From an uncultured Gammaproteobacteria bacterium (GTDB lineage Bacteria > Patescibacteriota > Patescibacteriia > Magasanikbacterales > UBA922), in contig CAZKAD010000001.1 of the NCBI GenBank assembly GCA_964550845.1, positions 21,342 through 85,341 on the forward strand: 64,000 bases of DNA, read 5' to 3'. The notes below the pieces were generated by a model. It did no database searches. It had not been told where the DNA came from and saw only the letters and a program-made list of their open reading frames with translations. Below are positions 1,464 to 50,354 of this stretch, one piece after another. The translations under genes were made by a program, and so were the position numbers. Position 1 is the stretch's first letter; the number at the start of each line of letters is the position of its first letter.

Positions 1464-2471
1464 ATGAAAATGAAAGTGAAAAGGCATCCAATGTACGATA
1501 TTGGTGCAAATTTCTTTATCTCGATTTATGGGGTTTTATTTTATCTTCTTTCGGTACTTTTAGTGAAAAGGGTCGATTTTGTCGAAAATTTGTTTTGGAT
1601 CTTTATAGGCAAACTCACCAATTGGCATTGGTATGCGATCGAACAAGACAAAGTTTATACAATACTCAATATGAGCTCTTACTCTTCAATTAAAGATCCA
1701 AGACTTGAGGCTGATTTCTTTATTTCCATCGGGAAATATTTTGTTCTTTGTGGTGCTCGGATGTTTCGGGATAGTGCTCATTTGTTTATCCATCAATCTC
1801 AATATGAGAAAATTTTTCTAGCTAGATGCTCTGACAAAAAAACAGAGAAAAAACTTGGTTTGATTGAGTTGTTTTATCGAACAGGGACTATTGATCAAAC
1901 AACTTACAAAAAACAATATTTTTCTGTCAAACATAATGAGTATAAATTTCAGACTGAAGTAATTGATCAAGTGTTAAAGATCTACGAACAAAAAGACAAA
2001 TGTGTCTGTGTTTTTAGTGGTCCTCCTCGAGCTTGCAAATCTTACACATCTCTATTGATCAACAAACGTTTTTCGACAAATGGAAATCATTCTTATTTTT
2101 GCGATTCATTTAATCCTACCGATCATGGGGATAATTTTTCTCTGCTATATTCGGTTGTCTCGCCGAAAAAGGAAAGTCCTTTGATTGTGATGCTGGAGGA
2201 ATTTGACGCAATTCTCTTAAACTTAGACAAAGAAAGATCTTTACATCTGAATCAAAGAGTAATGGTGCAGACAAAGAAAGATTGGAATCTCTTTCTCGAT
2301 AAATTTGATCGAGGGATGTATCCCCATGTCATTTTGGTAATGACAACCAACAAATCATTTGTCGAACTTGAACAATTTGACAAATCTTTTCTTCGCGAAG
2401 GGCGCGTAGATTTCAAGCACGAATTTCATCTTGAAGGGAAAAGTGTTGTCAAAATTGATTCCCAATCTTAA
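1464..2471 (+). CDS. divergent P-loop NTPase-like protein with N-terminal TM segment
   Basis: N-terminal hydrophobic helix. Degenerate Walker A FSGPPRACKSYT (GxxxxxKS) and a Walker B-like LIVMLEEFD. AAAATTGA at 1447-1454. Confidence 0.45.
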   Translation: MKMKVKRHPMYDIGANFFISIYGVLFYLLSVLLVKRVDFVENLFWIFIGKLTNWHWYAIEQDKVYTILNMSSYSSIKDPRLEADFFISIGKYFVLCGARMFRDSAHLFIHQSQYEKIFLARCSDKKTEKKLGLIELFYRTGTIDQTTYKKQYFSVKHNEYKFQTEVIDQVLKIYEQKDKCVCVFSGPPRACKSYTSLLINKRFSTNGNHSYFCDSFNPTDHGDNFSLLYSVVSPKKESPLIVMLEEFDAILLNLDKERSLHLNQRVMVQTKKDWNLFLDKFDRGMYPHVILVMTTNKSFVELEQFDKSFLREGRVDFKHEFHLEGKSVVKIDSQS

Positions 2472-2489
2472 GCATCATGAATAATTGTC

Positions 2490-2732
2490 ATGCAGTGCTC
2501 TTCACGACAAGTAGATCGAATCGTACTCAAACGATTAAGAAATCTCGATCGAAGTGTCTGTTGTATTCCAAAAGAATGTTCCTTTTTTCCAGATCGAGTG
2601 TTGTACATTATGACCGATTGGAGGGGAAATATTCGCAAACAAATATGGGTATTTGCAGATAAATTTGAATATCAAAATCGGAGATATCCGACTGTCGATA
2701 AATTACTCAAAGCAATTCATAGGGAATTATAA
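2490..2732 (+). CDS. small hypothetical protein (80 aa)
   Basis: The ORF ends immediately before terminator hairpin 2741-2764. A competing overlapping ORF 2477..2662 exists in another frame. Confidence 0.25.
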   Translation: MQCSSRQVDRIVLKRLRNLDRSVCCIPKECSFFPDRVLYIMTDWRGNIRKQIWVFADKFEYQNRRYPTVDKLLKAIHREL

Positions 2733-2740
2733 ACATCTTA

Positions 2741-2764
2741 TTTTTCACTCCAAGGAGTGAAAAA
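2741..2764. terminator. 3'-end palindromic hairpin TTTTTCACTCC-AA-GGAGTGAAAAA
   Basis: Perfect 11-bp inverted repeat between an upstream stop codon and the polB promoter, consistent with the mimivirus hairpin rule. Confidence 0.6.
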
Positions 2765-2769
2765 ATTGA
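2762..2769 (+). promoter_or_regulatory. AAAATTGA early-promoter octamer for polB
   Basis: Exact octamer 55 nt upstream of ATG 2824. Confidence 0.65.
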
Positions 2770-2823
2770 TCATTCTTTTTATTCTCAATTATATAAATAC
2801 CTCCTTCCAATTACCGTTTAAAA

Positions 2824-5781
2824 ATGTCACAGCTCACAACAGGAACTGCGTATATTTTTTCATGGTTTGCGGAAGATGACGGAATGATCCATGCATTCGG
2901 AATGACTCCAGAAAACGAAACTGTTCACTTAATTATTCTCAACTTTACTCGATATTGTTATATTGAATTACCTCCCGAAATTGACTGGGACAATCCAATT
3001 CATCAACGAAGTTTCCAAGAAGCTGTTGGATCAATGAATCAAGAAATTTATCCTCAACAAATGGTCTTTATGAAAAAGCATCGATTGTATCGAGCTCATA
3101 TGGTCAAAACCGATCAAGGTTATCAACGATGTTTATTCCCTTATCTTTTTGTTTGTTTCAAAACGCAAAAGGCAATGATTGATTTCACTCGTCGAGTTAG
3201 TTGGGGAATCTATATTGAATCAATTGGAAGAAAAATTAATTTACGTTCGCATGAACAAGACGCAAGTCCTTTTTTGCAACTCGCAGTTTGTCGCAACATC
3301 CCAATTACCGGTTGGATTGACTTCACTGGAGTGAAGCAATCCGATGACTGGAATAGCTCTTATTGTAAACATGAATATGTACTCAATTGGAATACACTGT
3401 CTGCTTCGAAAGACCAAAAATTGCTCAAGACTTTGCCCAAAGTTAAAATCGTTTCTTTTGATTGGGAGGCAAACTCAACCAATCATAATCGAATGCCAAA
3501 TGAAAAGAAGCCCGGAGATGTCTTGTTTCAATGTTCGATGAGTGTGTTTGAACATGGATCGGATAAAATCGAAAATCATCTTTTGACTCTTGGTTATCCT
3601 GATCCAGCGAAAGTAAGTGAAGGAAGAACCGATCCAGTCAAAATTCATCACTACGCAACTGAAGCTGACATTTTGGAAGGATTTGCCAAAATGATCATTG
3701 AGCTCGATCCACAAGTGATTACCGGATACAATATCATGGGCTGGGATTTCAATTATATGATTGCCCGCGCTAAACTAAACAATGTCTATCAATCATTTTC
3801 CCAATTTGGATACATCAAAGGAATGTCTGCGAAAGAAAAGAACATTACCTGGTCAAGCTCCGCATTTAGCAAACAAAGTTTTTCTTATCCTGCAATTGCC
3901 GGACGAATTATTATTGACATGCTTCCTGTGATTAAAAGAGGGTTTAAGTTTGCCAGTTACACGTTGAGTAATGTTTCAGTTGAAATCCTCGGGCCGAATC
4001 AAACCAAGGATCCTCTCACTCCACAAGGCATTTTCAAATGCTTTCAAATTGGATCACCTGAGACACTATCGATAGTAGGCAAGTATTGTGTGAGAGATTC
4101 CGAAGTCACTTCGTTTCTGTTCCAAAAACTCAAGACTTGGGTTGACAGCTGTCAAATGTCAAGTATTATGGGTGTTCCGATCTTTGATCTTTCGACACAA
4201 GGACAACAAGTTAAGATTTACGCTCAAATTTATCGAGATTGTTTTCTTAAGAATACGGTCGTTGAAAAGAATGGCTATGTCTGTGAAAAAGACGAGAGTT
4301 ATACCGGTGCAATCGTGTTGACACCTATTCCAGGTCTTCATGAAAATGTGGTTACGTTTGATTTCGCCAGTCTGTATCCATCAGTAATTGTGGAAAAGAA
4401 TATTTGTTATTCGACTTGGGTGATTGATCCAAATATTCCAGATGAAGATTGTCACGTACTTGAATGGGAGGATCATATTAATTGTCCTCATGATACCGAA
4501 AAAAGATCCGACAAAAAGAAAGTGATGTGTGCGAAACGTAAATATCGATTTCTTAAGACTCCGCAAGGAATTTTGCCAAATATTCTCACGCGATTGACTG
4601 CTGAAAGAAAGAAAGTGAAGAAAGAGCTCGAGGGGGTTGAAGAAAAGGAGAAGGAAGAAAAAGATCCTATGTTGAAGAAAGATTTGAAGATGTATGCAAC
4701 CATTCTTGACATGACTCAAATTGCAATTAAAACTGTATCCAATAGTATGTATGGTGTGATGGGTGTTACCGAAGGCCGACTGCCTTTTATGCCAGGTGCA
4801 ATGTCGACTACCGCTGGTGGTCGAGCTGCAATTATGAAAGCGAAGAAAATCATCCTTGATCGTCATCCTGGCAAAGTTATTTATGGTGATACCGATTCGT
4901 TGATGTATATCTTCGATGATATGAAGCGTTTCGAAGATGAAAAGGGGAAGATCGATTACAAAGCTCTTGAAAAGTTCTGCAACAAAGTGTCAGAGGAAAT
5001 CTCTTGTCACTTTGCAAAACCGATGAAACTCGAATTTGAAAACATTGCGGAACAATTCTTTATTTTAACCAAGAAAAGATACATTTCAAAACTCAGTAAT
5101 GGAAAAGTTAAAAAGCGAGGTATCATGTTAACTCGACGAGATAACGCCGCTTGCTCGAGAAAAGCTTATGAAGGATTGCTTAATCTTATCTTTCAAAAGG
5201 CACCCCTGGATAAAATTTTTGACTATATTGTTGAAGCTCTCAATCAAATCTATAGCCATTATTACCCAAGCAAAGATTATGCAATCACAAAGAGTATCAA
5301 AGACATCGATACTTACAAAGTCAAAGCTCTTTCAACCGAACTAGTCGCTCGTCAACGACAATTGAAGAATAAGTTTCTTCCTTATGTTGAACCAAACAAT
5401 CCACAGGCCTCGAAGATCGAAGATGAATACAAATTTCGATCTTTGCCAGCCCATGTTCAGTTGGCTGAAACAATGAGATCAAGAGGGTCAATTGTTGAGT
5501 CTGGAAGTCGATTTGCTTATGTAGTGACTACTAAAGGTGGTCCTTCGGGAAAAATGTGGCAAAAGATCGAAAGTCTTGAATATTATTCTCGTCATCAGGG
5601 AATGATCAATTTAGATAGCAATTACTATGGCAAGGCCCTGATTAATCCGTTTGATGAAGTACTTCAAATCATGTTCCAACGACAAAATTTTACTAAACAA
5701 CAACACAAAATTCGTCTGCAAAAATATGAGATGCTCCAAGAGCTGAAGAGATTGATGGCTCCTCAACTTATTGCTGAATAA
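2824..5781 (+). CDS. polB: family B DNA polymerase
   Basis: Exo motif FDWEA. Pol motif A DFASLYPS, motif B KTVSNSMYG and motif C YGDTDS. 985 aa, contiguous, no intein. Confidence 0.95.
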   Translation: MSQLTTGTAYIFSWFAEDDGMIHAFGMTPENETVHLIILNFTRYCYIELPPEIDWDNPIHQRSFQEAVGSMNQEIYPQQMVFMKKHRLYRAHMVKTDQGYQRCLFPYLFVCFKTQKAMIDFTRRVSWGIYIESIGRKINLRSHEQDASPFLQLAVCRNIPITGWIDFTGVKQSDDWNSSYCKHEYVLNWNTLSASKDQKLLKTLPKVKIVSFDWEANSTNHNRMPNEKKPGDVLFQCSMSVFEHGSDKIENHLLTLGYPDPAKVSEGRTDPVKIHHYATEADILEGFAKMIIELDPQVITGYNIMGWDFNYMIARAKLNNVYQSFSQFGYIKGMSAKEKNITWSSSAFSKQSFSYPAIAGRIIIDMLPVIKRGFKFASYTLSNVSVEILGPNQTKDPLTPQGIFKCFQIGSPETLSIVGKYCVRDSEVTSFLFQKLKTWVDSCQMSSIMGVPIFDLSTQGQQVKIYAQIYRDCFLKNTVVEKNGYVCEKDESYTGAIVLTPIPGLHENVVTFDFASLYPSVIVEKNICYSTWVIDPNIPDEDCHVLEWEDHINCPHDTEKRSDKKKVMCAKRKYRFLKTPQGILPNILTRLTAERKKVKKELEGVEEKEKEEKDPMLKKDLKMYATILDMTQIAIKTVSNSMYGVMGVTEGRLPFMPGAMSTTAGGRAAIMKAKKIILDRHPGKVIYGDTDSLMYIFDDMKRFEDEKGKIDYKALEKFCNKVSEEISCHFAKPMKLEFENIAEQFFILTKKRYISKLSNGKVKKRGIMLTRRDNAACSRKAYEGLLNLIFQKAPLDKIFDYIVEALNQIYSHYYPSKDYAITKSIKDIDTYKVKALSTELVARQRQLKNKFLPYVEPNNPQASKIEDEYKFRSLPAHVQLAETMRSRGSIVESGSRFAYVVTTKGGPSGKMWQKIESLEYYSRHQGMINLDSNYYGKALINPFDEVLQIMFQRQNFTKQQHKIRLQKYEMLQELKRLMAPQLIAE

Positions 5782-10627: not shown

Positions 10628-11158
10628 ATGAATGATGCAGCCAATGATATTTGTATTATTTGTCTGTCTCGCAAAGGTATAGCTAAATATTGTACACATT
10701 TCTATTGTGATATTTGTCTGAGAGAAATGTGCACAATTCGTCTTCAACATCATCAAAAATGTGGATGTGCAATTCCAGGTTGTATTGAATACGACCAAAA
10801 ACAAATTGATGCTATTCTTGACAATGAAGGCAAAACTGCACAAATTGAAGCTTATCTTCGACAACATGGACAAAAATGTACAAAGTGTCACGAATGGGTA
10901 ACCAAAGGTGATGGATGTAACTTTGTTAATTGTCGCTGTGGGTTATCATGGGATTGGCGTCATGGACCTCCAGATTTTGTTAATCAGACTTCTCCCTCTT
11001 CTTGGTGTTTTCGATGGTTTCGAGATGATACAAAAATTTTACTCGGGCAATTAAGTACGACTACGCTCAAAATGATTGAGCAAGAACTTACATTGCATAC
11101 ATCGAATAGAAGAGAATATTCAACTCGAAATATTCTTGAACATCTTAAGAAGTTGTAA
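10628..11158 (+). CDS. RING/IBR (RBR-like) zinc-finger protein, putative E3 ubiquitin ligase
   Basis: CIICL..CTHFYCDICL is RING-like. KCTKCHEWVTKGDGCNFVNCRCG resembles the IBR/Rcat C6HC module. Confidence 0.55.
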   Translation: MNDAANDICIICLSRKGIAKYCTHFYCDICLREMCTIRLQHHQKCGCAIPGCIEYDQKQIDAILDNEGKTAQIEAYLRQHGQKCTKCHEWVTKGDGCNFVNCRCGLSWDWRHGPPDFVNQTSPSSWCFRWFRDDTKILLGQLSTTTLKMIEQELTLHTSNRREYSTRNILEHLKKL

Positions 11159-16274: not shown

Positions 16275-18797
16275 TCAAAATTCATTTTGAATTGGTATCA
16301 CAATCACGGGATCTTTGATTGCAGCCATCTTTAGAATCCGAAGTTGAGACTCAAGATCCTTAATCTTCTTTTCATAATCAAGTTGACGTCGTTTGAAATC
16401 ACTGGTTGTTTCTTGGAGTTTAAGTTGATTATTTTTCAAACCGTCTTCAAGTGTCTTAACATGTTGTTTCTTTCCTTCAAGTTGAGACTTCAGTTCTTCT
16501 TCGACAATCGATAATTTTGAATACTTTTCATGGAGTTGAAGGAGTTCTTCTTTTGTCTTTGTATCTTCCTCGGTTGGTTTCCACGTTTTACTCATATTCT
16601 CACGAAGAGTATTGTTTTCATCACACAAGTTAGCCACTTTACCTCGAAGTCCAATATTTTCTTCTTCTAAAGTTTGAGTTCGAACATTTGCAAATTTAAT
16701 TGCTTGTTCGGCAGTCTCATCTTTCTCTTTTAGCAATAAATCGACTTTACTCAATTGTCCTTCGAGTTGAGCAATTTTATCGAGATAATTTGTTTGATTC
16801 GCTCGAAGAGATTCAATTTCGATTATCTTTTGATTCAAATCATCCTGGCAATGTCGAAGATCATCTCGTGAACGATCCGCAACAGATCGAATATTTTCAA
16901 TTTCATTTTTCACTAATGAAATACTTTTCTGAAGTTCAGTGACTAACGCAGTTTTACTGTCAAGTTCTTCAGCCATCTTTTGGAATTGATCAAGTGATTC
17001 TTCATAATTAGCTGGCGTGAGAGTCGGTTGAACAATCAAATTGTATTCTTTCTTAAAGTCTTTCACATCGATACCTTTCTTTTCACAAAGTTCAATTAGC
17101 TTATTAAGATCTTTAGTCAAAGCTGAAATAATGATTTGTTGAGTAGCAAGTTTTTCATTCGCTTCAAAGAGAAGACGTTTGTATTCTTCAACATTCATTT
17201 CAAGATTAACCACCGGTTTGTTCAAAATGGTTTGAGTAATAGCACCAAATCTCAGCGTTGAAAGAGTTTCTTCATAATTGAATTTCGCAGGTGAACAAGT
17301 AATTACCAAATGAGTTTTACTGTTTCCACCGAGGGAATCGGTCAAAAGACGAGTCAATTTTGAATCTCGATATGGAATGAAACTCTTTTTTTCAGCCAAA
17401 CTTCGAATCACCAATCCAAGAGTCAATAATGATTTGTTAGTTGAACTGGCTTGCTTCAACAGCAATCCTTCAGCCTTTGTTTTCGCTACCTTTTCAGATC
17501 CGGCCAAATCGACAAACACTATTCGCGAGATAATTTTCTTTCCAGTCTTCAGTTCATTTTGTTGAAGATGCATCACCAGTACTGAATGACTTCTCGACGA
17601 ATGAGCGTTCATCGCCGTTTCAGCAACTGTTCGATTCAATTCTCCCTTTCTCATTACACGGACAGCATCTTCAAAACAATTGACATAAGTTTCAGTCACA
17701 TCTTCAATCCATAATCCTCGGAAACGATCCTCACGAATCTTTAGGTCATCGCGAAGAGGTGAGAGCAGATCTCGAATTCGCTCGAGATAAATTTCAACAT
17801 ATGACATGCTAACCAAAAATTCATATCCTTTTTTCCCACGAATCGCGGTAAATAAATCTTTGATTAACCGTGGAACTACACCCATCTCAGTTTCGGTTTT
17901 CCAGAGTTCTCCCTCCTGAGACAGAGCATCGGGATTGTCTACCGATGCAGCGTATCCAGTCATTGTAGTAGTTTTTCCTGAATTATGTGTAATAGTTCCA
18001 TCGGCAAGCAAAAATCGTTCAGGACGATCTTTAATCGGTTCAAGTTGAAATCCTGAATACAACCCCATTCCAACATCTTCAATTTCGAATGAATAAGTTT
18101 CAAGGCCCTTCGAGGCCGGTTCAAGGCCCTTCGGGGTTGGTCCAATTTTCTTATCCTCTTTTCCGATCATTCGAACTCCAAGATAATCTTGTTTATTCTT
18201 TTGTTTCAATAGTTCCTTGACTGACATATCAATCAGCTTTGACTCAAATTGGAGTGTCAAAACGTGATCAAGATTCACCGTGTAAAAACTTTTCTTTTTC
18301 ACATCTCGAATTTTAAACATATGTGAAATTCCAGTAAACAACTTGATCACTTCTCGAACATTTCCTTTTTCGTCAACAAGTTTGTCACCGACTTGAACAT
18401 CTCGTGCTTGAATAATAGATCCATCGATCAGTAAGATTAGTGTCTCAGGAGAAAGGCATCCAGACTGACCATAAGCAAAGATAGTTGCATTGTATCCTTG
18501 AAGAATCTCATCAAGTAAAGGTTTACCAACAGCTTGATATACTTGTTCTTGAGTTGCTTTTTCTTCAAACACTTTGTCGTAATAATATCGATTATCTTTT
18601 ACCTCTTGTGGAAGATTAACAACGTTCCCATTCACCACAATCATTCGATTACCTCCATTTTTTAATTCCGTTTCATTACAAGGGCGAAATCGACAAAAAA
18701 CTTTAACATTTCGATCATCTCTTGGCTCTGTCTCATCCGATTTTTTAGACTCTGGTTTAGACTCTCGGGGAGAAAATGGTTTTGATTTTGCTTTCAT
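16275..18797 (-). CDS. kinesin-like motor protein with coiled-coil tail, interrupted by a mini-intein in the P-loop
   Basis: VKVFCRFRP and IFAYGQSG, then CLSPETLILLIDG...LLADGTITHN, then SGKTTTMTG. Switch I NAHSSRSHS and switch II DLAGSE. About 400 aa of heptad-rich tail. Confidence 0.9.
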   Translation of the reverse strand: MKAKSKPFSPRESKPESKKSDETEPRDDRNVKVFCRFRPCNETELKNGGNRMIVVNGNVVNLPQEVKDNRYYYDKVFEEKATQEQVYQAVGKPLLDEILQGYNATIFAYGQSGCLSPETLILLIDGSIIQARDVQVGDKLVDEKGNVREVIKLFTGISHMFKIRDVKKKSFYTVNLDHVLTLQFESKLIDMSVKELLKQKNKQDYLGVRMIGKEDKKIGPTPKGLEPASKGLETYSFEIEDVGMGLYSGFQLEPIKDRPERFLLADGTITHNSGKTTTMTGYAASVDNPDALSQEGELWKTETEMGVVPRLIKDLFTAIRGKKGYEFLVSMSYVEIYLERIRDLLSPLRDDLKIREDRFRGLWIEDVTETYVNCFEDAVRVMRKGELNRTVAETAMNAHSSRSHSVLVMHLQQNELKTGKKIISRIVFVDLAGSEKVAKTKAEGLLLKQASSTNKSLLTLGLVIRSLAEKKSFIPYRDSKLTRLLTDSLGGNSKTHLVITCSPAKFNYEETLSTLRFGAITQTILNKPVVNLEMNVEEYKRLLFEANEKLATQQIIISALTKDLNKLIELCEKKGIDVKDFKKEYNLIVQPTLTPANYEESLDQFQKMAEELDSKTALVTELQKSISLVKNEIENIRSVADRSRDDLRHCQDDLNQKIIEIESLRANQTNYLDKIAQLEGQLSKVDLLLKEKDETAEQAIKFANVRTQTLEEENIGLRGKVANLCDENNTLRENMSKTWKPTEEDTKTKEELLQLHEKYSKLSIVEEELKSQLEGKKQHVKTLEDGLKNNQLKLQETTSDFKRRQLDYEKKIKDLESQLRILKMAAIKDPVIVIPIQNEF
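17982..18458 (-). mobile_element. mini-intein (159 aa; Cys1 ... His-Asn, +1 Ser) inserted between G and S of the kinesin Walker A GQSG^SGKT
   Basis: Block A CLSPETLILLIDG and terminal THN followed by S. The flanking exteins rejoin to the canonical AYGQSGSGKTTTM. No endonuclease domain. Contains a GC-rich 15-nt duplication (GLEPASKGLE). Confidence 0.8.
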
Positions 18798-18855: not shown

Positions 18856-18863
18856 AAAATTGA
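18856..18863 (+). promoter_or_regulatory. AAAATTGA octamer
   Basis: 85 nt upstream of ATG 18949. Confidence 0.5.
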
Positions 18864-18880
18864 TAATTTTTCCAGATAAA

Positions 18881-18948
18881 TTAAACATCCTAAAGAACCG
18901 GTTAAACATTCGAAAGACCGGTTAAACATTCGAAAGGAAAATTAAACA
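18881..18948. repeat. about 3.5 x 20-21-bp tandem repeat TTAAACATTCGAAAGACCGG
   Basis: Located in the divergent region between the kinesin start and the Atg8 start. TTAAAC-core family. Confidence 0.8.
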
Positions 18949-19383
18949 ATGAGTTGGGCCGATATGTTTCGTAAAGGGGGTCGATTTTCCGAGGCTCTTC
19001 AAAAGCTCGAACAAAAAAGTCTTGAACAAAGACGAGTCGAAATCAAAAAAATTACCTTTCGATCTCCAGATTCTACTCCAGTAATCGTGATTCCTGAAAA
19101 TGGAATTCGGTTAGACAAAATGAAATATGTTTGTCCATCTGATGTTGACGTTGGACGATTGAATTACATTGTGACAAAGAAAATTCAATCAGCAACTCCA
19201 AATACCGAAAGGGCCTACTTCTTCTTTACTGAAGGAAAGCAAATTCCTCCGACAAGTCAATTGATCAAGGATCTATGCGCAAAAAATAAAAATGAAGATT
19301 TTTCTCTCCATCTTTATTTAACAGCTGAAGAAACGTTTGGATTTTCTTTTCCCATCCAAAATGAACATCCAGAAAGTCTTTGA
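18949..19383 (+). CDS. Atg8/LC3/GABARAP-family ubiquitin-like protein
   Basis: PVIVIPENGIRLDKMKYVCPSDVDVG and FFFTEGKQIPPTSQLIKDLCAKNKNEDFSLHLYLTAEETFG align with Atg8 (KYLVPSDLTVG, FFFVNN.IPPTSA.M..LY.EH.DEDGFLY..YS.E..FG). A conserved Gly is followed by a 13-aa tail. Confidence 0.8.
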   Translation: MSWADMFRKGGRFSEALQKLEQKSLEQRRVEIKKITFRSPDSTPVIVIPENGIRLDKMKYVCPSDVDVGRLNYIVTKKIQSATPNTERAYFFFTEGKQIPPTSQLIKDLCAKNKNEDFSLHLYLTAEETFGFSFPIQNEHPESL

Positions 19384-20113
19384 TGATTTCCGTCAAAAGC
19401 CCGGCCGATATCAAAAATTTCTGACTAAATTTGGTCGCGATTTGAAGGGTATTCAAATTGAGACCCTTGAACAATTTCGAAATGTAATTGATCAAATTCA
19501 AGTCAAAGATGATGGTAAAGACGATGGTATTGTTGCTCGAGGTAATGCAAGAGCTCGAGAAATTGATGAAGCGAGTCGAAGAAAAAAATTCCATGATCAT
19601 CTTTATTTTGATTTTGGGTGCTCTGATGGTAAATTGACCCTTGAGATTGCCAAACAGCTTAAGATTCCAACTGAAAATGTATATGGTGCTGATATGGCGT
19701 CGTTTACTGGAGTTAGAATTAACCCTGTGCTCCGTAAACAAAATTTTGAACTAATTGAAAAAGAGGGACAAAAATTGCCCTACAACGATCAAACTTTTGG
19801 TCTCGTGACATGTTTTCAAGTTTTGCATCATCTTCAATTTCCAGAATTGGCAATTGCCGAATTTCATCGAATCCTTCGAAAAGATGGAATGTTGATTATC
19901 CGTGAACATGATGCAAGAGAAGAGGATAAAAGATTGATTGATTTTGAACACTTGATTTATCCTCATGAAAACATCGAACAAACTTATATTGGCAATTATC
20001 ATCAAGCTTCTGAATGGGATCGAATGATGCTTAAACATGGATTTGTTGCATTTGGATTTACGATGACCAAAGGAGAAACTTTTTACTACACTCAATCTTA
20101 CTTGAAGATGTAA
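19361..20113 (+). CDS. class I SAM-dependent methyltransferase
   Basis: Motif I DFGCSDG, post-I YGADM, and LPYNDQTFGLVTCFQVLHHL. Start overlaps the Atg8 tail-coding region by 23 nt. Confidence 0.75.
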   Translation: MNIQKVFDDFRQKPGRYQKFLTKFGRDLKGIQIETLEQFRNVIDQIQVKDDGKDDGIVARGNARAREIDEASRRKKFHDHLYFDFGCSDGKLTLEIAKQLKIPTENVYGADMASFTGVRINPVLRKQNFELIEKEGQKLPYNDQTFGLVTCFQVLHHLQFPELAIAEFHRILRKDGMLIIREHDAREEDKRLIDFEHLIYPHENIEQTYIGNYHQASEWDRMMLKHGFVAFGFTMTKGETFYYTQSYLKM

Positions 20114-47116: not shown

Positions 47117-50100
47117 TTAACAGATCTTGTTTCGAATTCCTTTAACCAAGGGATCATTTGGACCGAAAATTCGGTGAATCACGTTTCCTTGACCAACTCT
47201 TCCGACTGTTTCGTAGTGATTATTGTCTCGATAAGAAACTAACACAATGCTTGGTCTTCCTTCGGTATAACTACAATCAACTGGAATTGGTTTTCCATCT
47301 TCATCAAGCAAATAGATATCATGGCGAATAAATTCAGACAAAATTTCAAGTACTTCGAGACCAACTTCATTGCCACTCGTTCCAAGATTATCAATGAAAT
47401 TTGCATACGCTTCTTGTTCGGCGAGCTCAAAGATTTTCTTCAAATCAAGCAAACCTCCAGCAGACAAATCTTTTCGAAGAGCTTGTAGTTGAAATGTATT
47501 TTCGAGTTCTTTTTTGTAAACTTCGATCATCTTTGATTGAAGAACTTTATCTTGTTCAAGACGAAGTAAATATTTTTCAAGCTGATATTGATTTCCCATC
47601 ATTGCAACCAAATTGGCTCGACGGCCAAGAAAACCTTCGTTTTTATTGGTCAAATAATAGTGAACAATTGAGTCAAAGCCTGGAACTTTTCTTCCAAATC
47701 CCATTCGTGCAATTCTTCCTTCTCCAACTTTCTTCCATTGGGCAATTGGAATGTTGACTGTTTTTCTCCAATTTTTGACGAACTCTTTCTTCTCATCGTC
47801 TTTCATTTTACGATAATCGATACTTAATGCTGTCTGTAAGGCATGGAAGAAATCATTTCCATCTACAAGAGTACCTGTACGAACCAATCCTTTCTCTTCA
47901 AGAACGATACTGTATACTTTATTCTTTCCAGGGTCAATTGGTTGAAGCGCAAGATCTTCTTGGATATTTACTCCACGAGCAAATCCGGTCAACGGATAGT
48001 AACTTTCTCGAACAAAGAGGAAAGATCGATACAGTCGAGCAAGTTGTTGTTCTTCAGGATCGAGCCATATCGGAGGTGAAAAGATCTCACTCTTTTCAAG
48101 TTTGAATCCGATTGTTTTCATTTTGTCGACGAAGTAATCCCAGTCAACAAGATATTCAATTTGCGTCTCAGCGACTGTCTGACTTCCTTTGTATTGATAT
48201 TCAAGTCCCTTGTTAAATAGAATATTTCCGGAAAATGGTTGATACAATCTCTTCAAAGTCACATTTCCAAGCTGGACAATCCCCTTTTCAAGTATTCGCC
48301 GAGTCGCTTGTCCATCAATGGTGGTTCCAAGGAAATATCCATTTTTCTCAACACTTTCATCAAGTGTTTGAAGAAGACCGTTGAGTGGATCTTCGTTTTC
48401 AAAGAAGAATGACAGCACAAAGAATGAAGTGGCAACTTGGACACGAGATCCGCGCAAAGCTTTCACAATTGTTTCAGTATCTTGCGCTCGAGCTTGAATA
48501 TCAATCAAATTTAGTCGTTGATTGCGAAATTCCATTTCGCTTGCTCTTTGTTTCAATTCGAGGAGAAACTCCGGATTTGGTTCAATTGCAATCAGTCTCG
48601 CTACATGAGCAGTGTAATATTTCATCAAATCTCCTCCTTTTCCAGAACCCAGATCAAGGATAGTTCTTTCGGGGCAGTACAGATTAATCAATTCTCGTTT
48701 AATCGTATTGCTAAACTTACGGAAAGCATCTCGATCTGAACTTTGTTTCAAGGCATTAATTAGTTCTTGTTCGGTGAGAGGATTTTGAATATCAATCCAA
48801 ACGTCTTTTGCAATGTCAACGTAATTTGGTTCAGTTTTATCTGGACGTGCCTTCACCAGTTCAAAAGTTCCGTTGTGCCAACGATATTCTCCAATCTTTG
48901 GAGGATAAAATTTGCTGCGAATGGTACCACGAAAGCCAGGAGGTGTAAAATGAATCAAACCATTTTTACCACCAACCATCAAATTGTACATTTCACCATA
49001 GACTTTCACTGCTGCAAAATCAATGGTCAATTCGTGGACTGGTTTCCACTTATAAGTATGGAAATTTAAATAAGGTTCTGCAATTGGAGTGAGAATTAAA
49101 CCATCATAATTAGGATTATTTCGAATCTCGTTCAACAATTGTTCAGTGTCTTCGGCAATTTGATAAGTCATGAAAAATTGTTTCTTAATGATATCAACAT
49201 CACGCAGACTATTGACCAATTGCTCAATGTATTCAAATCTCTTATCAAGAGTCAATTGACGGACATCTCGATCATGAAGGCAAATCATATCAAAGATATG
49301 AACTTGATTCTTAAAGAATTCACAATCAAAGATTGTTCCATCAAGATCTTCACGAATCTTACTTCGAAAGAGTTCGATGTTACCTTTCATTCCAGCCAGA
49401 AAAAGTTTTTGATCTGTAATAATCCCAATCATCCGCACTCCATTTAATTTTTTAGTCACTGCGTAGGCAGAGAGGTTTAAATTCCATCGTTTCAAATTGA
49501 TCGGTTGAGGAAGACCACGTTTGAACAAAACTGATTCGTCGAACTTTGCGCCATCTTGTTGTTTGAAAAAATTATTAAAGAAGCGAAGTGCGACTTTTGT
49601 ATCAACATTAATCTTCTCTTTGAGAGCATCAAAAGAAGCCCAGATCAACTTAAGTGGCATAAAGAAGGTTTTCAAATCAATATTCTTTGAAAAATATTCA
49701 ACTTCAACTTCATAACTCTCTTGAGTTGAAGTCATCTCAATTGAATGTGAAGCATCCTTAGCAAAGAAAGTAACTCGAGATTTTTCACGAGTCATTTGAA
49801 TTGATCCTGGTTCATCTTGAGTAGGTATTTCCTCTGAAGTGACTAAGTCGATCTTAATAGTATATTCTCCTTGAACTCGATCAAACAAAGTGAATCTCGA
49901 CTTCATCATTTTCCTCACTTTGGTTATTGGTACGTTATCAGTTAAAACTTCTTCAATTCGGATATTATTATCTGACAATTGTGCAAATGTCTTGGAAAAT
50001 TTCCCCTGTTGATAGAGATCAGAATCAGTAATAATTTTGAGTAGCCACATCCATCTCTTTTGATCAGCATTCGGAAATCCAGCCTGAGCTTTACCTTGAT

Positions 50101-50239
50101 AAATAAACCCAAGTCGAGCTTCAATCTCGGTATTTGGTTTACCGAGACTTTCTTTCAACACCGATTGAATTCGATTACAAACATCCGGTTGGATGCCAAT
50201 CTTCGAATTCCCGAGGATCTCTGCAGCACATTGATCCAT
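47117..50239 (-). CDS. trifunctional mRNA capping enzyme (triphosphatase, guanylyltransferase, N7-methyltransferase) with extra C-terminal domain
   Basis: TTM motif EIEARLG. GTase motif I as KLNGVR, III DGTIFDCEF, IV DGLILTP, V YKWKP. MTase ILDLGSGKGGDLMKY. C-terminal about 290 aa with a DGNDFFHAL...NNHYE OTU-like pattern. Minus-strand AAAATTGA at 50272-50279, 33 nt upstream of the ATG. Confidence 0.9.
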   Translation of the reverse strand: MDQCAAEILGNSKIGIQPDVCNRIQSVLKESLGKPNTEIEARLGFIYQGKAQAGFPNADQKRWMWLLKIITDSDLYQQGKFSKTFAQLSDNNIRIEEVLTDNVPITKVRKMMKSRFTLFDRVQGEYTIKIDLVTSEEIPTQDEPGSIQMTREKSRVTFFAKDASHSIEMTSTQESYEVEVEYFSKNIDLKTFFMPLKLIWASFDALKEKINVDTKVALRFFNNFFKQQDGAKFDESVLFKRGLPQPINLKRWNLNLSAYAVTKKLNGVRMIGIITDQKLFLAGMKGNIELFRSKIREDLDGTIFDCEFFKNQVHIFDMICLHDRDVRQLTLDKRFEYIEQLVNSLRDVDIIKKQFFMTYQIAEDTEQLLNEIRNNPNYDGLILTPIAEPYLNFHTYKWKPVHELTIDFAAVKVYGEMYNLMVGGKNGLIHFTPPGFRGTIRSKFYPPKIGEYRWHNGTFELVKARPDKTEPNYVDIAKDVWIDIQNPLTEQELINALKQSSDRDAFRKFSNTIKRELINLYCPERTILDLGSGKGGDLMKYYTAHVARLIAIEPNPEFLLELKQRASEMEFRNQRLNLIDIQARAQDTETIVKALRGSRVQVATSFFVLSFFFENEDPLNGLLQTLDESVEKNGYFLGTTIDGQATRRILEKGIVQLGNVTLKRLYQPFSGNILFNKGLEYQYKGSQTVAETQIEYLVDWDYFVDKMKTIGFKLEKSEIFSPPIWLDPEEQQLARLYRSFLFVRESYYPLTGFARGVNIQEDLALQPIDPGKNKVYSIVLEEKGLVRTGTLVDGNDFFHALQTALSIDYRKMKDDEKKEFVKNWRKTVNIPIAQWKKVGEGRIARMGFGRKVPGFDSIVHYYLTNKNEGFLGRRANLVAMMGNQYQLEKYLLRLEQDKVLQSKMIEVYKKELENTFQLQALRKDLSAGGLLDLKKIFELAEQEAYANFIDNLGTSGNEVGLEVLEILSEFIRHDIYLLDEDGKPIPVDCSYTEGRPSIVLVSYRDNNHYETVGRVGQGNVIHRIFGPNDPLVKGIRNKIC

Positions 50240-50354
50240 TGCTTTTATTTCGAGAAAGAAAAAGGAAGATTTCAATTTTCTTTGGAAAAGTGAAAATGGA
50301 TCTTATTTTAGTCTTAATCCTTGAACAGACTTTATATCGAGATTAAGACTAAGA

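What the first reader, a model, noticed from the sequence alone, without database searches (positions are those of the whole stretch)
18949..19383. Virus-encoded Atg8/LC3/GABARAP homolog
The ORF aligns along its whole length with Atg8: KYVCPSDVDVG versus KYLVPSDLTVG, and FFFTEGKQIPPTSQLIKDLCAKNKNEDFSLHLYLTAEETFG versus [40 protein letters not shown]. The conserved Gly is followed by a 13-aa extension that an Atg4-like protease would remove. That removable tail is the part overlapped by the start of the downstream methyltransferase gene. I am not aware of Atg8 orthologs described in nucleocytoviruses. An RBR-like E3 (10628..11158) and an OTU-like domain on the capping enzyme are also in the window, so the virus may manipulate host ubiquitin-like conjugation or autophagy.
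Basis: partly seen in the sequence, partly recalled or inferred. Interest (0 to 1): 0.75.

Follow-up and report, generated by a model that had tools for sequence, protein, structure and literature searches.

The report
Giant-virus Atg8 homolog, divergent lineage
An uncultivated giant virus carries a real, selectively maintained copy of the autophagy membrane-tagging protein Atg8, but such viral copies are already known and turn out to be common, so this is a divergent new member rather than a first.

Summary
The ORF at 18949..19383 (+), 144 aa, is a genuine Atg8/GABARAP-family protein. Pfam ATG8 matches end to end (60 bits against a cutoff of 27). The best solved structures are GATE-16/GABARAP, and the AlphaFold model (pLDDT 85) matches only Atg8-family structures. 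The Phe-Gly end is followed by a disordered 13-residue tail. The gene is under strong purifying selection (dN/dS about 0.1). It sits among giant-virus core genes in a genome that uses the mimivirid AAAATTGA promoter motif.

The novelty claim fails. Viral ATG8 has been reported (Karki & Aylward 2023; PelV-1 2025), and I found 296 Atg8-encoding stretches on IMG/VR viral contigs. Pestiviruses also carry LC3 insertions.

The tail is a by-product of evolution. A sister virus (59% identical, same gene order) ends TFG-CD-stop. The window lacks the 12 nt that carry that stop, so translation runs through former spacer into the methyltransferase gene's start, giving a 23-nt overlap.

New here: this lineage alone changes near-invariant residues of the LIR-docking W-site (F104S, R28S, Y106H). 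Placement among other Atg8s is unresolved. About 58% of the sampled viral Atg8s end exactly at Gly.

No Atg4, Atg3 or Atg7 is encoded in the window. The RBR claim is unproven and the OTU claim is unsupported.

The parts
18949..19383 (+). Atg8/GABARAP-family gene, 144 codons plus stop
   Evidence: ORF. Pfam PF02991 full-length match at 60.3 bits. PDB best hits are GATE-16/GABARAP. AF2 model plus Foldseek. dN/dS 0.08-0.12. It is the only Atg8-like ORF in a six-frame scan of the window.
18949..19341 (+). Predicted mature form, Met1-Gly131: three N-terminal helices (aa 3-8, 14-20, 25-38) followed by a beta-grasp core ending in Phe130-Gly131
   Evidence: Secondary structure and pLDDT. Alignment of F130/G131 with yeast F115/G116.
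19342..19380 (+). 13-residue tail after the Gly (FSFPIQNEHPESL). It is disordered and is translated from former intergenic spacer (first 6 codons) plus the out-of-frame 5' end of the methyltransferase gene (last 7 codons).
   Evidence: pLDDT about 50. 12-nt deletion relative to the sister virus removes the TAA stop. The tail is kept in three strain lineages.
19361..20113 (+). Downstream SAM-dependent methyltransferase gene. Its first 23 nt overlap the end of the Atg8 ORF.
   Evidence: Pfam Methyltransf_11/23/25. Start at ATG 19361 from gene calls and sister alignment.
18856..18863 (+). AAAATTGA octamer (mimivirid early-promoter-type motif), 86-93 nt upstream of the Atg8 ATG
   Evidence: Sequence. 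The motif lies upstream of 19 of 51 genes, 20 observed against 1.6 expected. It is conserved upstream of Atg8 in strains L094 and L089.
18880..18937 (+). Local tandem repeat of about 20 nt (ACCGGTTAAACATTCGAAAG: two exact copies plus one degenerate) between the promoter motif and the ATG. It is strain-specific.
   Evidence: There is one copy in L094 and none in L089.
16275..18797 (-). Divergently transcribed kinesin gene with a Hint intein in the motor P-loop. It is the conserved neighbour of the Atg8 gene in this virus and its sister.
   Evidence: Pfam Kinesin, Microtub_bd, Hom_end_hint. Synteny in L083-L088 and L094.
16278..16313 (-). Kinesin C-terminal 12 residues, DPVIVIPIQNEF. They share PVIVIP and PIQNE with the Atg8. 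Whether they belong to the same system is unproven.
   Evidence: This is a post-hoc observation.

Best explanation
This is a functional Atg8/GABARAP-family ubiquitin-like protein encoded by an uncultivated Imitervirales-type giant virus. Shown: family membership, fold, an intact Phe-Gly conjugation end, strong purifying selection, viral genomic context, and a conserved upstream early-promoter-type motif. Inferred: it is made as a precursor, and host Atg4 clips the disordered 13-residue tail after Gly131. Host Atg7, Atg3 and Atg12-Atg5-Atg16 then link it to phosphatidylethanolamine on membranes. This gives the virus its own supply of the membrane tag during infection, to build or redirect autophagosome-like membranes for the virus factory, the virion membrane or egress. 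The W-site of its LIR-docking groove is remodelled (F104S, R28S, Y106H, L50V), so it probably recruits a partner set different from that of the host's Atg8. The tail itself has no function. It is a tolerated by-product of losing the stop codon, and it is tolerable precisely because it is removed or irrelevant.
For: Family and fold. Conjugation-relevant residues are kept: F77, F79, Y49, K46, K48, F115 and G116 in yeast numbering. The residue after the Gly is Phe, as in human GATE-16. The tail is disordered and arose from a 12-nt deletion that removed the stop, while the sister virus keeps a 2-residue tail, so both need clipping. dN/dS is 0.08-0.12 with dS 0.22-0.66 across three strains. The viral context includes PolB, RNR, capping enzyme, Rpb1 and FEN1. 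AAAATTGA is enriched, with a conserved copy upstream of the gene. No Atg4, Atg3, Atg7, Atg5 or Atg12 domain occurs in any ORF of 150 aa or more in the window, so the host machinery would be needed. Precedents: host Atg8 is found in purified coccolithovirus virions, and autophagy is needed for their release (PMC4233938). Pestiviruses carry cell-derived LC3 insertions (PMC12908451; BFVD hit Q8B512). From my own knowledge, not from a tool: ATG4 cleaves after the Gly of LC3/GABARAP regardless of what follows (C-terminal fusion reporters; pestivirus LC3-NS3 processing, Fricke et al. 2004), and natural tails range from 0 to about 21 residues.
Against: No experiment shows cleavage, lipidation, or even expression. 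The W-site changes (F104 to S/T in 0 of 314 other Atg8s; R28 to S/N in 2 of 314; Y106 to H in 0 of 314) show that the protein has left the canonical interaction mode, and these changes could also impair recognition by host enzymes. Only 64 kb of a genome of at least 259 kb was examined, so virus-encoded processing or conjugating enzymes elsewhere are not excluded. Most other viral Atg8s are pre-primed, ending at Gly (37 of 64). This lineage has given up that shortcut, which is odd for a protein whose point is rapid conjugation. The host is unknown.
Confidence: 0.6

Rival explanations
1. It is a decoy or inhibitor that is not conjugated. The viral Atg8 stays soluble, with its tail uncleaved or its core not accepted by host E1/E2. 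It would act by titrating host Atg4/Atg7/Atg3 or selected autophagy receptors, which would blunt antiviral autophagy (xenophagy) rather than building membranes.
For: Substitutions that are unique or nearly so occur at near-invariant positions of the docking groove: F104S, R28S, Y106H, L50V, V51C. The sister additionally has P52D and F79I, showing relaxed constraint on residues used by the canonical machinery. The lineage carries a tail, whereas 58% of sampled viral homologs are pre-primed. There is an extra N-terminal helix and a 3-residue insertion after alpha3.
Against: F130-G131 and the preceding E-x-T are strictly kept in the query, the sister and all strains. That would be unnecessary for a soluble binder. 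K46, K48, Y49, F77, E17, I21, P30 and I32 are kept. The tail sequence is accidental, which fits a removed segment better than a functional blocking cap.
Confidence: 0.25
2. It is an adaptor for the neighbouring viral kinesin and acts independently of autophagy. The Atg8-like protein, historically a microtubule-associated protein family, would bind the kinesin's conserved C-terminal tail and couple membranes, factories or virions to microtubule transport.
For: The divergent kinesin | Atg8 gene pair is conserved between this virus and a sister whose Atg8 is only 59% identical. The kinesin's last 12 residues share PVIVIP and PIQNE with the Atg8, and each of these occurs nowhere else in the six-frame translation of the window. 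A random 12-mer shares a 5-mer with the Atg8 at a rate of 7.6e-4. The kinesin tail is under purifying selection. A remodelled W-site lacking F104 could suit an all-aliphatic, CLIR-like motif such as VIVI; this last point is inference.
Against: The pattern was spotted post hoc. The exact PVIVIP match is not kept in the sister kinesin (PVVERNIVTP). The PIQNE in the Atg8 lies in the accidental tail, which the sister lacks. Sequence similarity between two proteins is not evidence that they bind each other. Only 1 of 80 other viral Atg8 loci has a kinesin-like hit within about 8 kb. Synteny over the whole 20 kb is conserved between the two viruses, so the adjacency is not special.
Confidence: 0.1
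3. It is not a viral gene. It would be host DNA mis-assembled into a viral contig, or a decaying pseudogene picked up recently.
For: Atg8 is a universal eukaryotic gene and giant-virus bins can contain host contigs. Contigs with this gene also sit inside two NCBI genome assemblies.
Against: The same gene in the same gene order occurs on independent contigs from at least 8 samples, and in a sister virus, flanked on both sides by viral genes. The gene has no introns, lies in a region that is 94% coding, and has a viral promoter motif upstream. dN/dS is about 0.1. Identity to any cellular Atg8 is at most 43%.
Confidence: 0.02

Closest known systems
Cellular Atg8 family, GABARAP/GATE-16 (GABARAPL2) branch
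   Same: Full-length Pfam ATG8 match. 38-43% identity to the best cellular sequences. Same fold, with TM-score normalised to target of 0.75-0.84. It keeps K46, K48, Y49, P52, E17, I21, P30, I32, F77 and F79, and the TFG|F end is identical to that of GATE-16.
   Different: It has 14 extra N-terminal residues forming a third helix, a 3-residue deletion in the beta1-beta2 loop, and a 3-residue insertion after alpha3. Substitutions that are unique or nearly so occur at F104 (S), Y106 (H), R28 (S) and L50 (V). It has a 13-residue tail. It is encoded by a virus, and no donor lineage can be resolved.
Atg8 homologs of other nucleocytoviruses (vESP ATG8 of Karki & Aylward 2023; PelV-1 gene PelV1_394; 296 IMG/VR stretches found here)
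   Same: Same family, also intronless and embedded in AT-rich, densely coding giant-virus contigs.
   Different: Only 28-40% identical to them, and it does not group with any of them with support; bootstrap beyond the query and sister pair is below 30%. 37 of 64 sampled viral homologs end exactly at Gly and keep F104, R28 and Y106, whereas this lineage has a tail and a remodelled W-site.
LC3/GATE-16/GABARAP insertions in cytopathogenic pestivirus polyproteins (BVDV)
   Same: An Atg8-family sequence carried in a viral genome, followed by more polypeptide after the Gly. The BFVD hit Q8B512 is 36% identical. LC3 insertions are cited in PMC12908451. Cleavage after the Gly by host ATG4 is the functional point; this is from my own knowledge (Fricke et al. 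2004).
   Different: The pestivirus insertions are recent, nearly unchanged host cDNA captured by RNA recombination and used purely as a protease site to release NS3. Here the gene is an old, divergent, free-standing DNA-virus gene under its own purifying selection, and the tail after the Gly is a meaningless 13-mer.
Hijacking of host-encoded Atg8 by coccolithovirus EhV (Schatz et al. 2014, PMC4233938)
   Same: A giant virus that depends on Atg8-decorated membranes for assembly and egress. This is the likeliest kind of use.
   Different: EhV uses the host's protein, whereas this virus brings its own divergent copy.
'Ubiquitin-like proteins' of Marseillevirus and Pithovirus (BFVD A0A481YW55, A0A481YU40, W5S5B8, D2XB42)
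   Same: Atg8-like fold by Foldseek: E from 1e-9 to 4e-6, TM-score normalised to target of 0.68-0.86.
   Different: Only 18-25% identical and 100-146 aa long. They are not annotated as Atg8, and I did not examine their sequences for the Phe-Gly end or the docking site.

Membership tests
Atg8/LC3/GABARAP family (Pfam PF02991) | Sequence match to the family profile above the curated threshold, over its full length | tested here: met
   60.3 bits against a cutoff of 27, E 2.3e-16, model positions 1-104 of 104 on aa 27-131. 112 PDB Atg8-family sequences match at E of 1 or less, with the best at 6e-16.
Atg8/LC3/GABARAP family (Pfam PF02991) | Ubiquitin-like beta-grasp core preceded by the two Atg8-specific N-terminal alpha-helices | tested here: met
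   The AF2 model (pLDDT 84.8) has helices at aa 14-20 and 25-38 before the beta-grasp, plus an extra, lower-confidence helix at aa 3-8. The top 50 Foldseek PDB hits are all Atg8-family structures and none is plain ubiquitin.
Atg8/LC3/GABARAP family (Pfam PF02991) | C-terminal aromatic-Gly (yeast F115-G116), the site of Atg4 cleavage and PE conjugation | tested here: met
   F130-G131 align with F115-G116. They are invariant in the query, the sister and all strains.
Atg8/LC3/GABARAP family (Pfam PF02991) | Surface used by Atg4/Atg7/Atg3 (yeast F77, F79, Y49, L50) | tested here: met
   F91, F93 and Y60 are kept, and L50 becomes V61, a conservative change. The sister has F79I.
Atg8/LC3/GABARAP family (Pfam PF02991) | Canonical LIR/AIM docking site: W-site (HP1: E17, I21, P30, I32, K48, L50, F104), L-site (HP2: Y49, V51, P52, L55, F60, V63), and basic contacts R28, K46, R67 | tested here: inconclusive
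   The L-site is conservatively kept (Y, C, P, V, L, I), and K46 and K48 are kept. In and around the W-site, F104 is S (0 of 314 other Atg8s have S or T), R28 is S (2 of 314 have S; none has N) and L50 is V. Next to the site, Y106 is H (0 of 314). The groove is present but remodelled, and binding was not tested.
Atg8/LC3/GABARAP family (Pfam PF02991) | Actual processing by Atg4 and lipidation to phosphatidylethanolamine | not testable with these tools
   This needs biochemistry or cell biology. No Atg4, Atg3 or Atg7 domain is in the window.
GABARAP subfamily (as opposed to the LC3 subfamily) | Groups with GABARAP/GATE-16/yeast Atg8 rather than with LC3 | tested here: inconclusive
   The best PDB and Foldseek hits are GATE-16/GABARAP. 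It lacks the LC3-type longer N-terminus and loop. The bootstrapped NJ tree gives no supported placement.
A common clade of nucleocytovirus Atg8s | Monophyly with other viral Atg8 sequences | tested here: inconclusive
   The query and sister pair has 98.5% bootstrap. The next node has 29% and deeper nodes 6% or less. The nearest sequences are a mix of unlabelled metagenomic and viral ones. This is NJ on 112 columns; no ML tree was possible.
Pre-primed (Gly-terminal) viral Atg8s | ORF ends exactly at the conjugated Gly | tested here: not met
   The query has 13 residues after the Gly and the sister has 2. 37 of 64 sampled IMG/VR viral homologs have none.
Nucleocytoviricota, Imitervirales-type genome (context of the gene) | Giant-virus core genes plus the AAAATTGA early-promoter octamer enriched upstream of genes | tested here: met
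   PolB, RNR small subunit, capping enzyme, Rpb1, FEN1/XPG and a helicase are present. AAAATTGA lies upstream of 19 of 51 genes, 20 observed against 1.6 expected. That this motif is typical of mimivirids is from my own knowledge (Suhre et al. 2005). PolB has no named relatives, so no family is assigned.

The most novel reading that the evidence does not exclude
This lineage's Atg8 has been rewired away from the host's LIR network: its W-site has lost F104, R28 and Y106. It would instead dock the conserved aliphatic C-terminal tail of the virus's own neighbouring kinesin (DPVI[VL]IPIQNEF). Once host enzymes lipidate it, the virus would have a private membrane-to-motor coupling system for moving factory membranes or virions along host microtubules, insulated from host autophagy receptors.
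Probability: 0.06. Interest if true: 0.8.

Novelty: new member of a known kind. Interest (0 to 1): 0.35.

Why it matters
Viral Atg8 genes have so far been mentioned only in surveys and genome descriptions, and none has been studied functionally. This work shows three things. They are common on giant-virus contigs. Most of those sampled are already primed for conjugation, ending at the Gly. At least one lineage, under strong purifying selection, has kept the conjugation end while remodelling the cargo-docking pocket. That makes it a natural separation-of-function variant, useful for asking which Atg8 activities a virus needs: membrane tagging or receptor binding. It also gives a clean example of a C-terminal Atg8 tail arising from accidental stop loss, which supports the view that whatever follows the Gly is functionally irrelevant.

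Tried and rejected
1. The word-indexed homology search with the single protein found only its own 90% cluster. The exhaustive HMMER search was needed to find the sister cluster.
2. IMG/VR scans with the query alone and with the sister alone found no close relatives. A 20-sequence profile was too diverse for the pattern scan. A 6-sequence profile worked.
3. megablast of the locus against the phage collection found nothing, as expected for a eukaryotic virus.
4. Donor lineage: the bootstrapped NJ tree could not place the query and sister pair, and no ML software was available.
5. Virus taxonomy: all PolB relatives are unnamed metagenomic sequences, one of them mis-binned as Pelagibacteraceae. 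Literature searches for the sample and assembly accessions found nothing.
6. The upstream TTAAACA repeat as a general promoter motif: rejected. It occurs upstream of this gene only and varies among strains.
7. OTU domain on the capping enzyme: no Pfam hit at E of 0.1 or less and no PDB hit at E of 1 or less.
8. RBR E3 at 10628: no Pfam hit, and the best PDB match is RNF216 at E 0.3.
9. Kinesin linkage as a general property of viral Atg8 loci: rejected, with 1 of 80 loci positive.
10. The Tupanvirus paper that mentions Atg8 concerns only the host gene.
Full report
OBSERVATION. It matches the Pfam ATG8 model over the model's full length: positions 1-104 of 104 on aa 27-131, 60.3 bits against a curated cutoff of 27, E 2.3e-16. 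Among solved structures, the best sequence matches are human GABARAPL2/GATE-16, GABARAP, and plant, insect and yeast Atg8, with E down to 6e-16. These alignments run to the very end of the reference proteins, including the terminal TFG|F. Gly131 is followed by 13 residues, FSFPIQNEHPESL. A local HMM scan of all six frames finds no second Atg8-like ORF in the window.

FOLD. I built a 55-sequence alignment and obtained an AlphaFold2 model with mean pLDDT 84.8, above 90 through the core. It shows helices at aa 3-8, 14-20 and 25-38, then a beta-grasp: strands at 43-49, 59-62, 88-93 and 120-128, and helices at 68-77 and 106-113. Residues 132-144 are disordered, with pLDDT about 50. In a Foldseek search of the PDB, the top 50 hits are all GABARAP, GATE-16, LGG-1 or Atg8 structures, with TM-score normalised to target of 0.63-0.84 (except one 247-residue chain at 0.39) and rmsd of 1.5-5.3 Å (most under 4 Å) over roughly 110-130 alignment columns. 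Compared with canonical Atg8s, the protein has about 14 extra N-terminal residues forming a third helix of lower confidence. It also has a 3-residue deletion in the beta1-beta2 loop and a 3-residue insertion (ATP) after alpha3.

GENOMIC CONTEXT. The window is giant-virus DNA. It encodes family-B DNA polymerase, ribonucleotide reductase small subunit, NUDIX hydrolase, FEN1/XPG, a trifunctional-type mRNA capping enzyme, RNA polymerase Rpb1, RNase H, a dual-specificity phosphatase, a serine recombinase, several Ser/Thr kinases, and a kinesin interrupted by a Hint intein. About 94% of the window is covered by ORFs of 100 aa or more. The octamer AAAATTGA occurs 20 times in the 100 nt upstream of 19 of the 51 ORFs, against 1.6 expected. 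From my own knowledge, this is the hallmark early-promoter element of mimivirids (Suhre et al. 2005), so I call the genome Imitervirales-type. PolB has no named relatives: the sister virus is at 76% identity and everything else is at or below 54%, all metagenomic. The lineage is therefore uncultivated, and I do not assign a family. One AAAATTGA copy lies at 18856-18863, 86-93 nt upstream of the Atg8 ATG, and it is conserved in two diverged strains.

IS IT A LIVE GENE? The exact protein is in public databases, with a 90%-identity cluster of 11 members from NCBI, JGI, ENA and Logan assemblies. I recovered the DNA of three strain lineages. Nei-Gojobori dN/dS over codons 1-131 is 0.08-0.12 at dS of 0.22-0.66, which indicates strong purifying selection. 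The gene order kinesin(-) | Atg8(+) | methyltransferase(+) | alpha/beta-hydrolase(-) | kinase | HD | kinase recurs on independent contigs from many samples. Contamination by host DNA and pseudogene status are effectively excluded.

RELATIVES. An exhaustive HMMER search of 1.84 billion cluster representatives found 1110 hits at E of 0.001 or less, but only one close cluster, P0012 (59% identity, 136 aa). Everything else is at or below 43% identity. P0012 comes from a sister virus with the same gene order across at least 20 kb. It shares the N-terminal extension, the short loop and the post-alpha3 insertion, and it ends TFG-CD. In a bootstrapped NJ tree of 178 sequences and 112 columns, the query and sister pair has 98.5% support. 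The next node has 29% and deeper ones 6% or less. No donor lineage can be named, and I cannot say whether this lineage shares an origin with other viral Atg8s.

THE TAIL. Aligning the Atg8-methyltransferase junction of the window with that of the sister shows how the tail arose. The sister reads ...ACT TTT GGT TGT GAT TAA, followed by a 22-nt spacer and then the methyltransferase ATG. The window lacks 12 nt (TTGTGATTAAAA) that contain the sister's TAA stop. Its Atg8 frame therefore continues through what is spacer in the sister (FSFPIQ) and then, out of frame, through the first 20 nt of the methyltransferase gene (NEHPESL) to a TGA. The methyltransferase starts at ATG 19361 (MNIQK..., matching MNIQA... 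in the sister). The overlap is thus 23 nt, and only the last 7 tail codons are involved. The tail is kept in all three strains, so the stop loss predates their divergence. Its sequence is accidental. This fits a segment that is removed or irrelevant, but it does not prove removal. From my own knowledge, ATG4 proteases cleave after the Gly whatever follows (LC3 fusion reporters; pestivirus LC3-NS3), and natural tails range from 0 to about 21 residues, so a 13-mer is no obstacle.

FUNCTIONAL RESIDUES. I mapped yeast Atg8 numbering onto the query and onto 314 other Atg8s: 64 viral, 136 metagenomic representatives and 114 mostly named cellular sequences. Residues that are kept: E17, I21, P30, I32, K46, K48, Y49, P52, F77, F79, F115 and G116. 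Conservative changes: L50V, V51C, L55V, F60L, V63I and R67K. Radical, lineage-specific changes: F104 is S in the query and T in the sister, while none of the 314 others has S or T. Y106 is H in both, and in none of the 314. R28 is S in the query and N in the sister, and only 2 of the 314 have S. F104, L50 and R28 line or flank the W-site (HP1) that receives the aromatic residue of LIR/AIM motifs. The conjugation end and the E1/E2/Atg4 face look intact, whereas the cargo and adaptor docking pocket has been remodelled. Whether it still binds canonical LIRs is untested.

MACHINERY. None of the 51 ORFs of 150 aa or more shows an Atg4 (Peptidase_C54), Atg3, Atg7, Atg5, Atg12 or Atg16 domain. Within this 64 kb, at least, the virus would rely on host enzymes. 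The rest of the genome (a contig of at least 259 kb) was not available to me.

WHAT IS ALREADY KNOWN. Karki & Aylward (bioRxiv 10.1101/2023.07.11.548585) include ATG8 among eukaryotic signature proteins present in more than five nucleocytovirus genomes. They note its tree as an exception to the pattern of late-branching viral clades. The PelV-1 preprint (PMC12338748) annotates an Atg8 gene, PelV1_394, in an isolated dinoflagellate virus and discusses possible roles. My profile scan of IMG/VR found 296 stretches on viral contigs that encode Atg8 relatives. The 80 loci retained are AT-rich (median GC 0.32) and densely coding (median 88%). Many are labelled as giant-virus MAGs, on contigs of up to 393 kb, and one lies within 3 kb of an intein-containing Rpb1 gene. 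In the viral structure library BFVD, the model matches a BVDV polyprotein fragment carrying an Atg8-family insertion (36% identity) and the 'ubiquitin-like proteins' of Marseillevirus and Pithovirus. Cell-derived LC3 insertions in pestiviruses are cited in PMC12908451. Schatz et al. 2014 (PMC4233938) showed that a coccolithovirus needs an autophagy-like process for release and packages host Atg8 in virions. No paper in the library reports a functional study of a giant-virus-encoded Atg8.

A PATTERN AMONG VIRAL ATG8s. Among the 64 distinct proteins encoded by the 80 retained IMG/VR loci, 37 end exactly at the conjugated Gly. A further 19 have 1-5 extra residues, 6 have 6-20, and 2 have more than 20; one of these carries a 94-residue Cys-rich extension. 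More than half of the sampled viral homologs are therefore pre-primed and would bypass Atg4. This lineage is in the minority that is not. The sample is the best-scoring 80 of 296, so the fraction is indicative only.

MECHANISM. I judge the most likely mechanism to be the following (about 0.6). The gene, possibly an early one, produces a precursor. Host Atg4 removes the tail, and host Atg7, Atg3 and the E3-like complex attach Gly131 to PE. The virus thereby supplies its own membrane tag for autophagosome-like membranes used in factory or virion-membrane formation or in egress, with a docking pocket tuned to non-canonical partners. The shown steps are family, fold, the intact Phe-Gly end, selection and context. 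All biochemical steps are inferred. The main rival (about 0.25) is a soluble decoy that titrates host autophagy factors. The remodelled pocket and the loss of pre-priming favour this rival, but the strict conservation of F-G argues against it. A third idea (about 0.1) is a link to the neighbouring kinesin, described below.

AN UNEXPLAINED DETAIL. The neighbouring, divergently transcribed kinesin ends with DPVIVIPIQNEF. PVIVIP is also beta1 of the Atg8 (aa 44-49), and PIQNE also occurs in the Atg8 tail (aa 135-139). Each k-mer occurs only at these two places in the six-frame translation of the window. A random 12-mer of the window's amino-acid composition shares any 5-mer with the Atg8 at a rate of 7.6e-4. 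The codons differ at synonymous sites, so this is not a recent DNA duplication. The kinesin tail is conserved: DPVILIPIQNEF in a strain with four synonymous changes, and ...NIVTPIQNEN in the sister. Several points argue against over-reading this. I noticed it post hoc. The Atg8-side PIQNE lies in the accidental tail, which the sister lacks. Similarity is not evidence of binding. Only 1 of 80 other viral Atg8 loci has a kinesin-like hit nearby. I record it as a lead, not a finding.

SIDE CLAIMS. The ORF at 10628..11158 has a RING-like N-terminus (CIICL...CTHFYCDIC) and an IBR/Rcat-like segment (KCTKCHEWVTKGDGCNFVNCRCG). It has no Pfam hit at E of 0.1 or less, and its best PDB match is the RBR ligase RNF216 at E 0.3. 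The RBR reading is plausible but unproven. The capping enzyme shows guanylyltransferase and N7-methyltransferase domains only. Its C-terminal 337 residues have no Pfam or PDB match, so I find no support for an OTU domain.

VERDICT. The finding is a new, divergent member of an already recognised but functionally unstudied class, giant-virus Atg8 homologs. It is not the first of its kind. The tail-overlap story reduces to an accidental stop loss. The points with some value are the uniquely remodelled W-site under strong purifying selection, the frequency of pre-primed viral Atg8s, and the possible kinesin link. Interest is 0.35.

Noticed in passing
window 16275..18797 (-), intein at about aa 114-270: The viral kinesin carries a Hint-type intein inserted in the motor-domain P-loop (...GQSG|CLSPETL...THN|SGKT...). 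The same arrangement is present in the sister virus and in strains.
   Followed up: partly
window 16278..16313 (-) compared with 19078..19095 and 19351..19365 (+): The kinesin C-terminal tail DPVIVIPIQNEF shares PVIVIP and PIQNE with the adjacent Atg8. Each k-mer occurs only at these two places in the window. The tail is conserved in a strain and partly in the sister virus. The cause is unexplained.
   Followed up: partly
whole window; for example 18856..18863: The AAAATTGA octamer lies within 100 nt upstream of 19 of 51 ORFs (20 copies against 1.6 expected). This indicates mimivirid-type early promoters in an otherwise unclassified virus.
   Followed up: partly
window 18880..18937: A tandem repeat of about 20 nt (ACCGGTTAAACATTCGAAAG) lies just upstream of the Atg8 start. 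Copy number differs between strains (2-3, 1 or 0), and it is not found elsewhere in the window.
   Followed up: yes
window ORFs starting at 331, 37757, 39320, 40031, 40690, 41417, 42278, 43720, 44488, 45249 (-) and 62976 (-): A multi-copy paralogous gene family shares motifs such as ELYDPR/LYDPRL, FLT[RK]ELYDP and GEKVDHGYDPLGELVA. Most copies form a tandem cluster at 39-46 kb. There is no Pfam match.
   Followed up: no
window 10628..11158 (+): A small Cys-rich ORF has a RING-like N-terminus and an IBR/Rcat-like segment.
   Followed up: partly
window 47117..50275 (-), C-terminal 337 aa (47117..48130): The C-terminal third of the capping enzyme has no detectable domain in Pfam or by PDB sequence search.
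   Followed up: partly
window 33280..33771 and 33768..34415 (+): The DHH and DHHA1 domains (weak, sub-threshold Pfam matches) lie on two consecutive ORFs that overlap by 4 nt. This could be a split phosphoesterase gene or a frameshift.
   Followed up: no
window 54051..56987 (+): The Rpb1 ORF ends after only the first 64 of 267 positions of domain 5. The large RNA polymerase subunit therefore seems to be split or interrupted here.
   Followed up: no
IMG/VR loci L003-L082; for example L033/L034 at 8001 onward; protein P0013: Among sampled viral Atg8 homologs, 37 of 64 end exactly at the conjugated Gly. One pair carries a 94-residue Cys-rich extension after the Gly. One metagenomic protein (P0013, 211 aa) is a tandem double Atg8.
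   Followed up: partly
L002 (GCA_013565595.1, JACCDK010778307.1); L092/L094 (GCA_020049755.1, JAHZTO010001768.1, 39 kb contig): Contigs of this same virus sit inside two NCBI genome assemblies of unidentified organisms. This is a possible clue to the host or to the sample type.
   Followed up: no
BFVD entries A0A481YW55, A0A481YU40, W5S5B8, D2XB42: The 'ubiquitin-like proteins' of Marseillevirus and Pithovirus match the model as an Atg8-like fold (E from 1e-9 to 4e-6) at only 18-25% identity. They may be unrecognised Atg8-like proteins in isolated giant viruses.
   Followed up: no
L095 (JGI 3300038404), 1706..3499 and 4913..5664: In this strain's contig the methyltransferase is called as two ORFs (130 and 139 aa) and the kinesin as only 597 aa. 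This could reflect frameshifts, assembly errors or gene decay.
   Followed up: no
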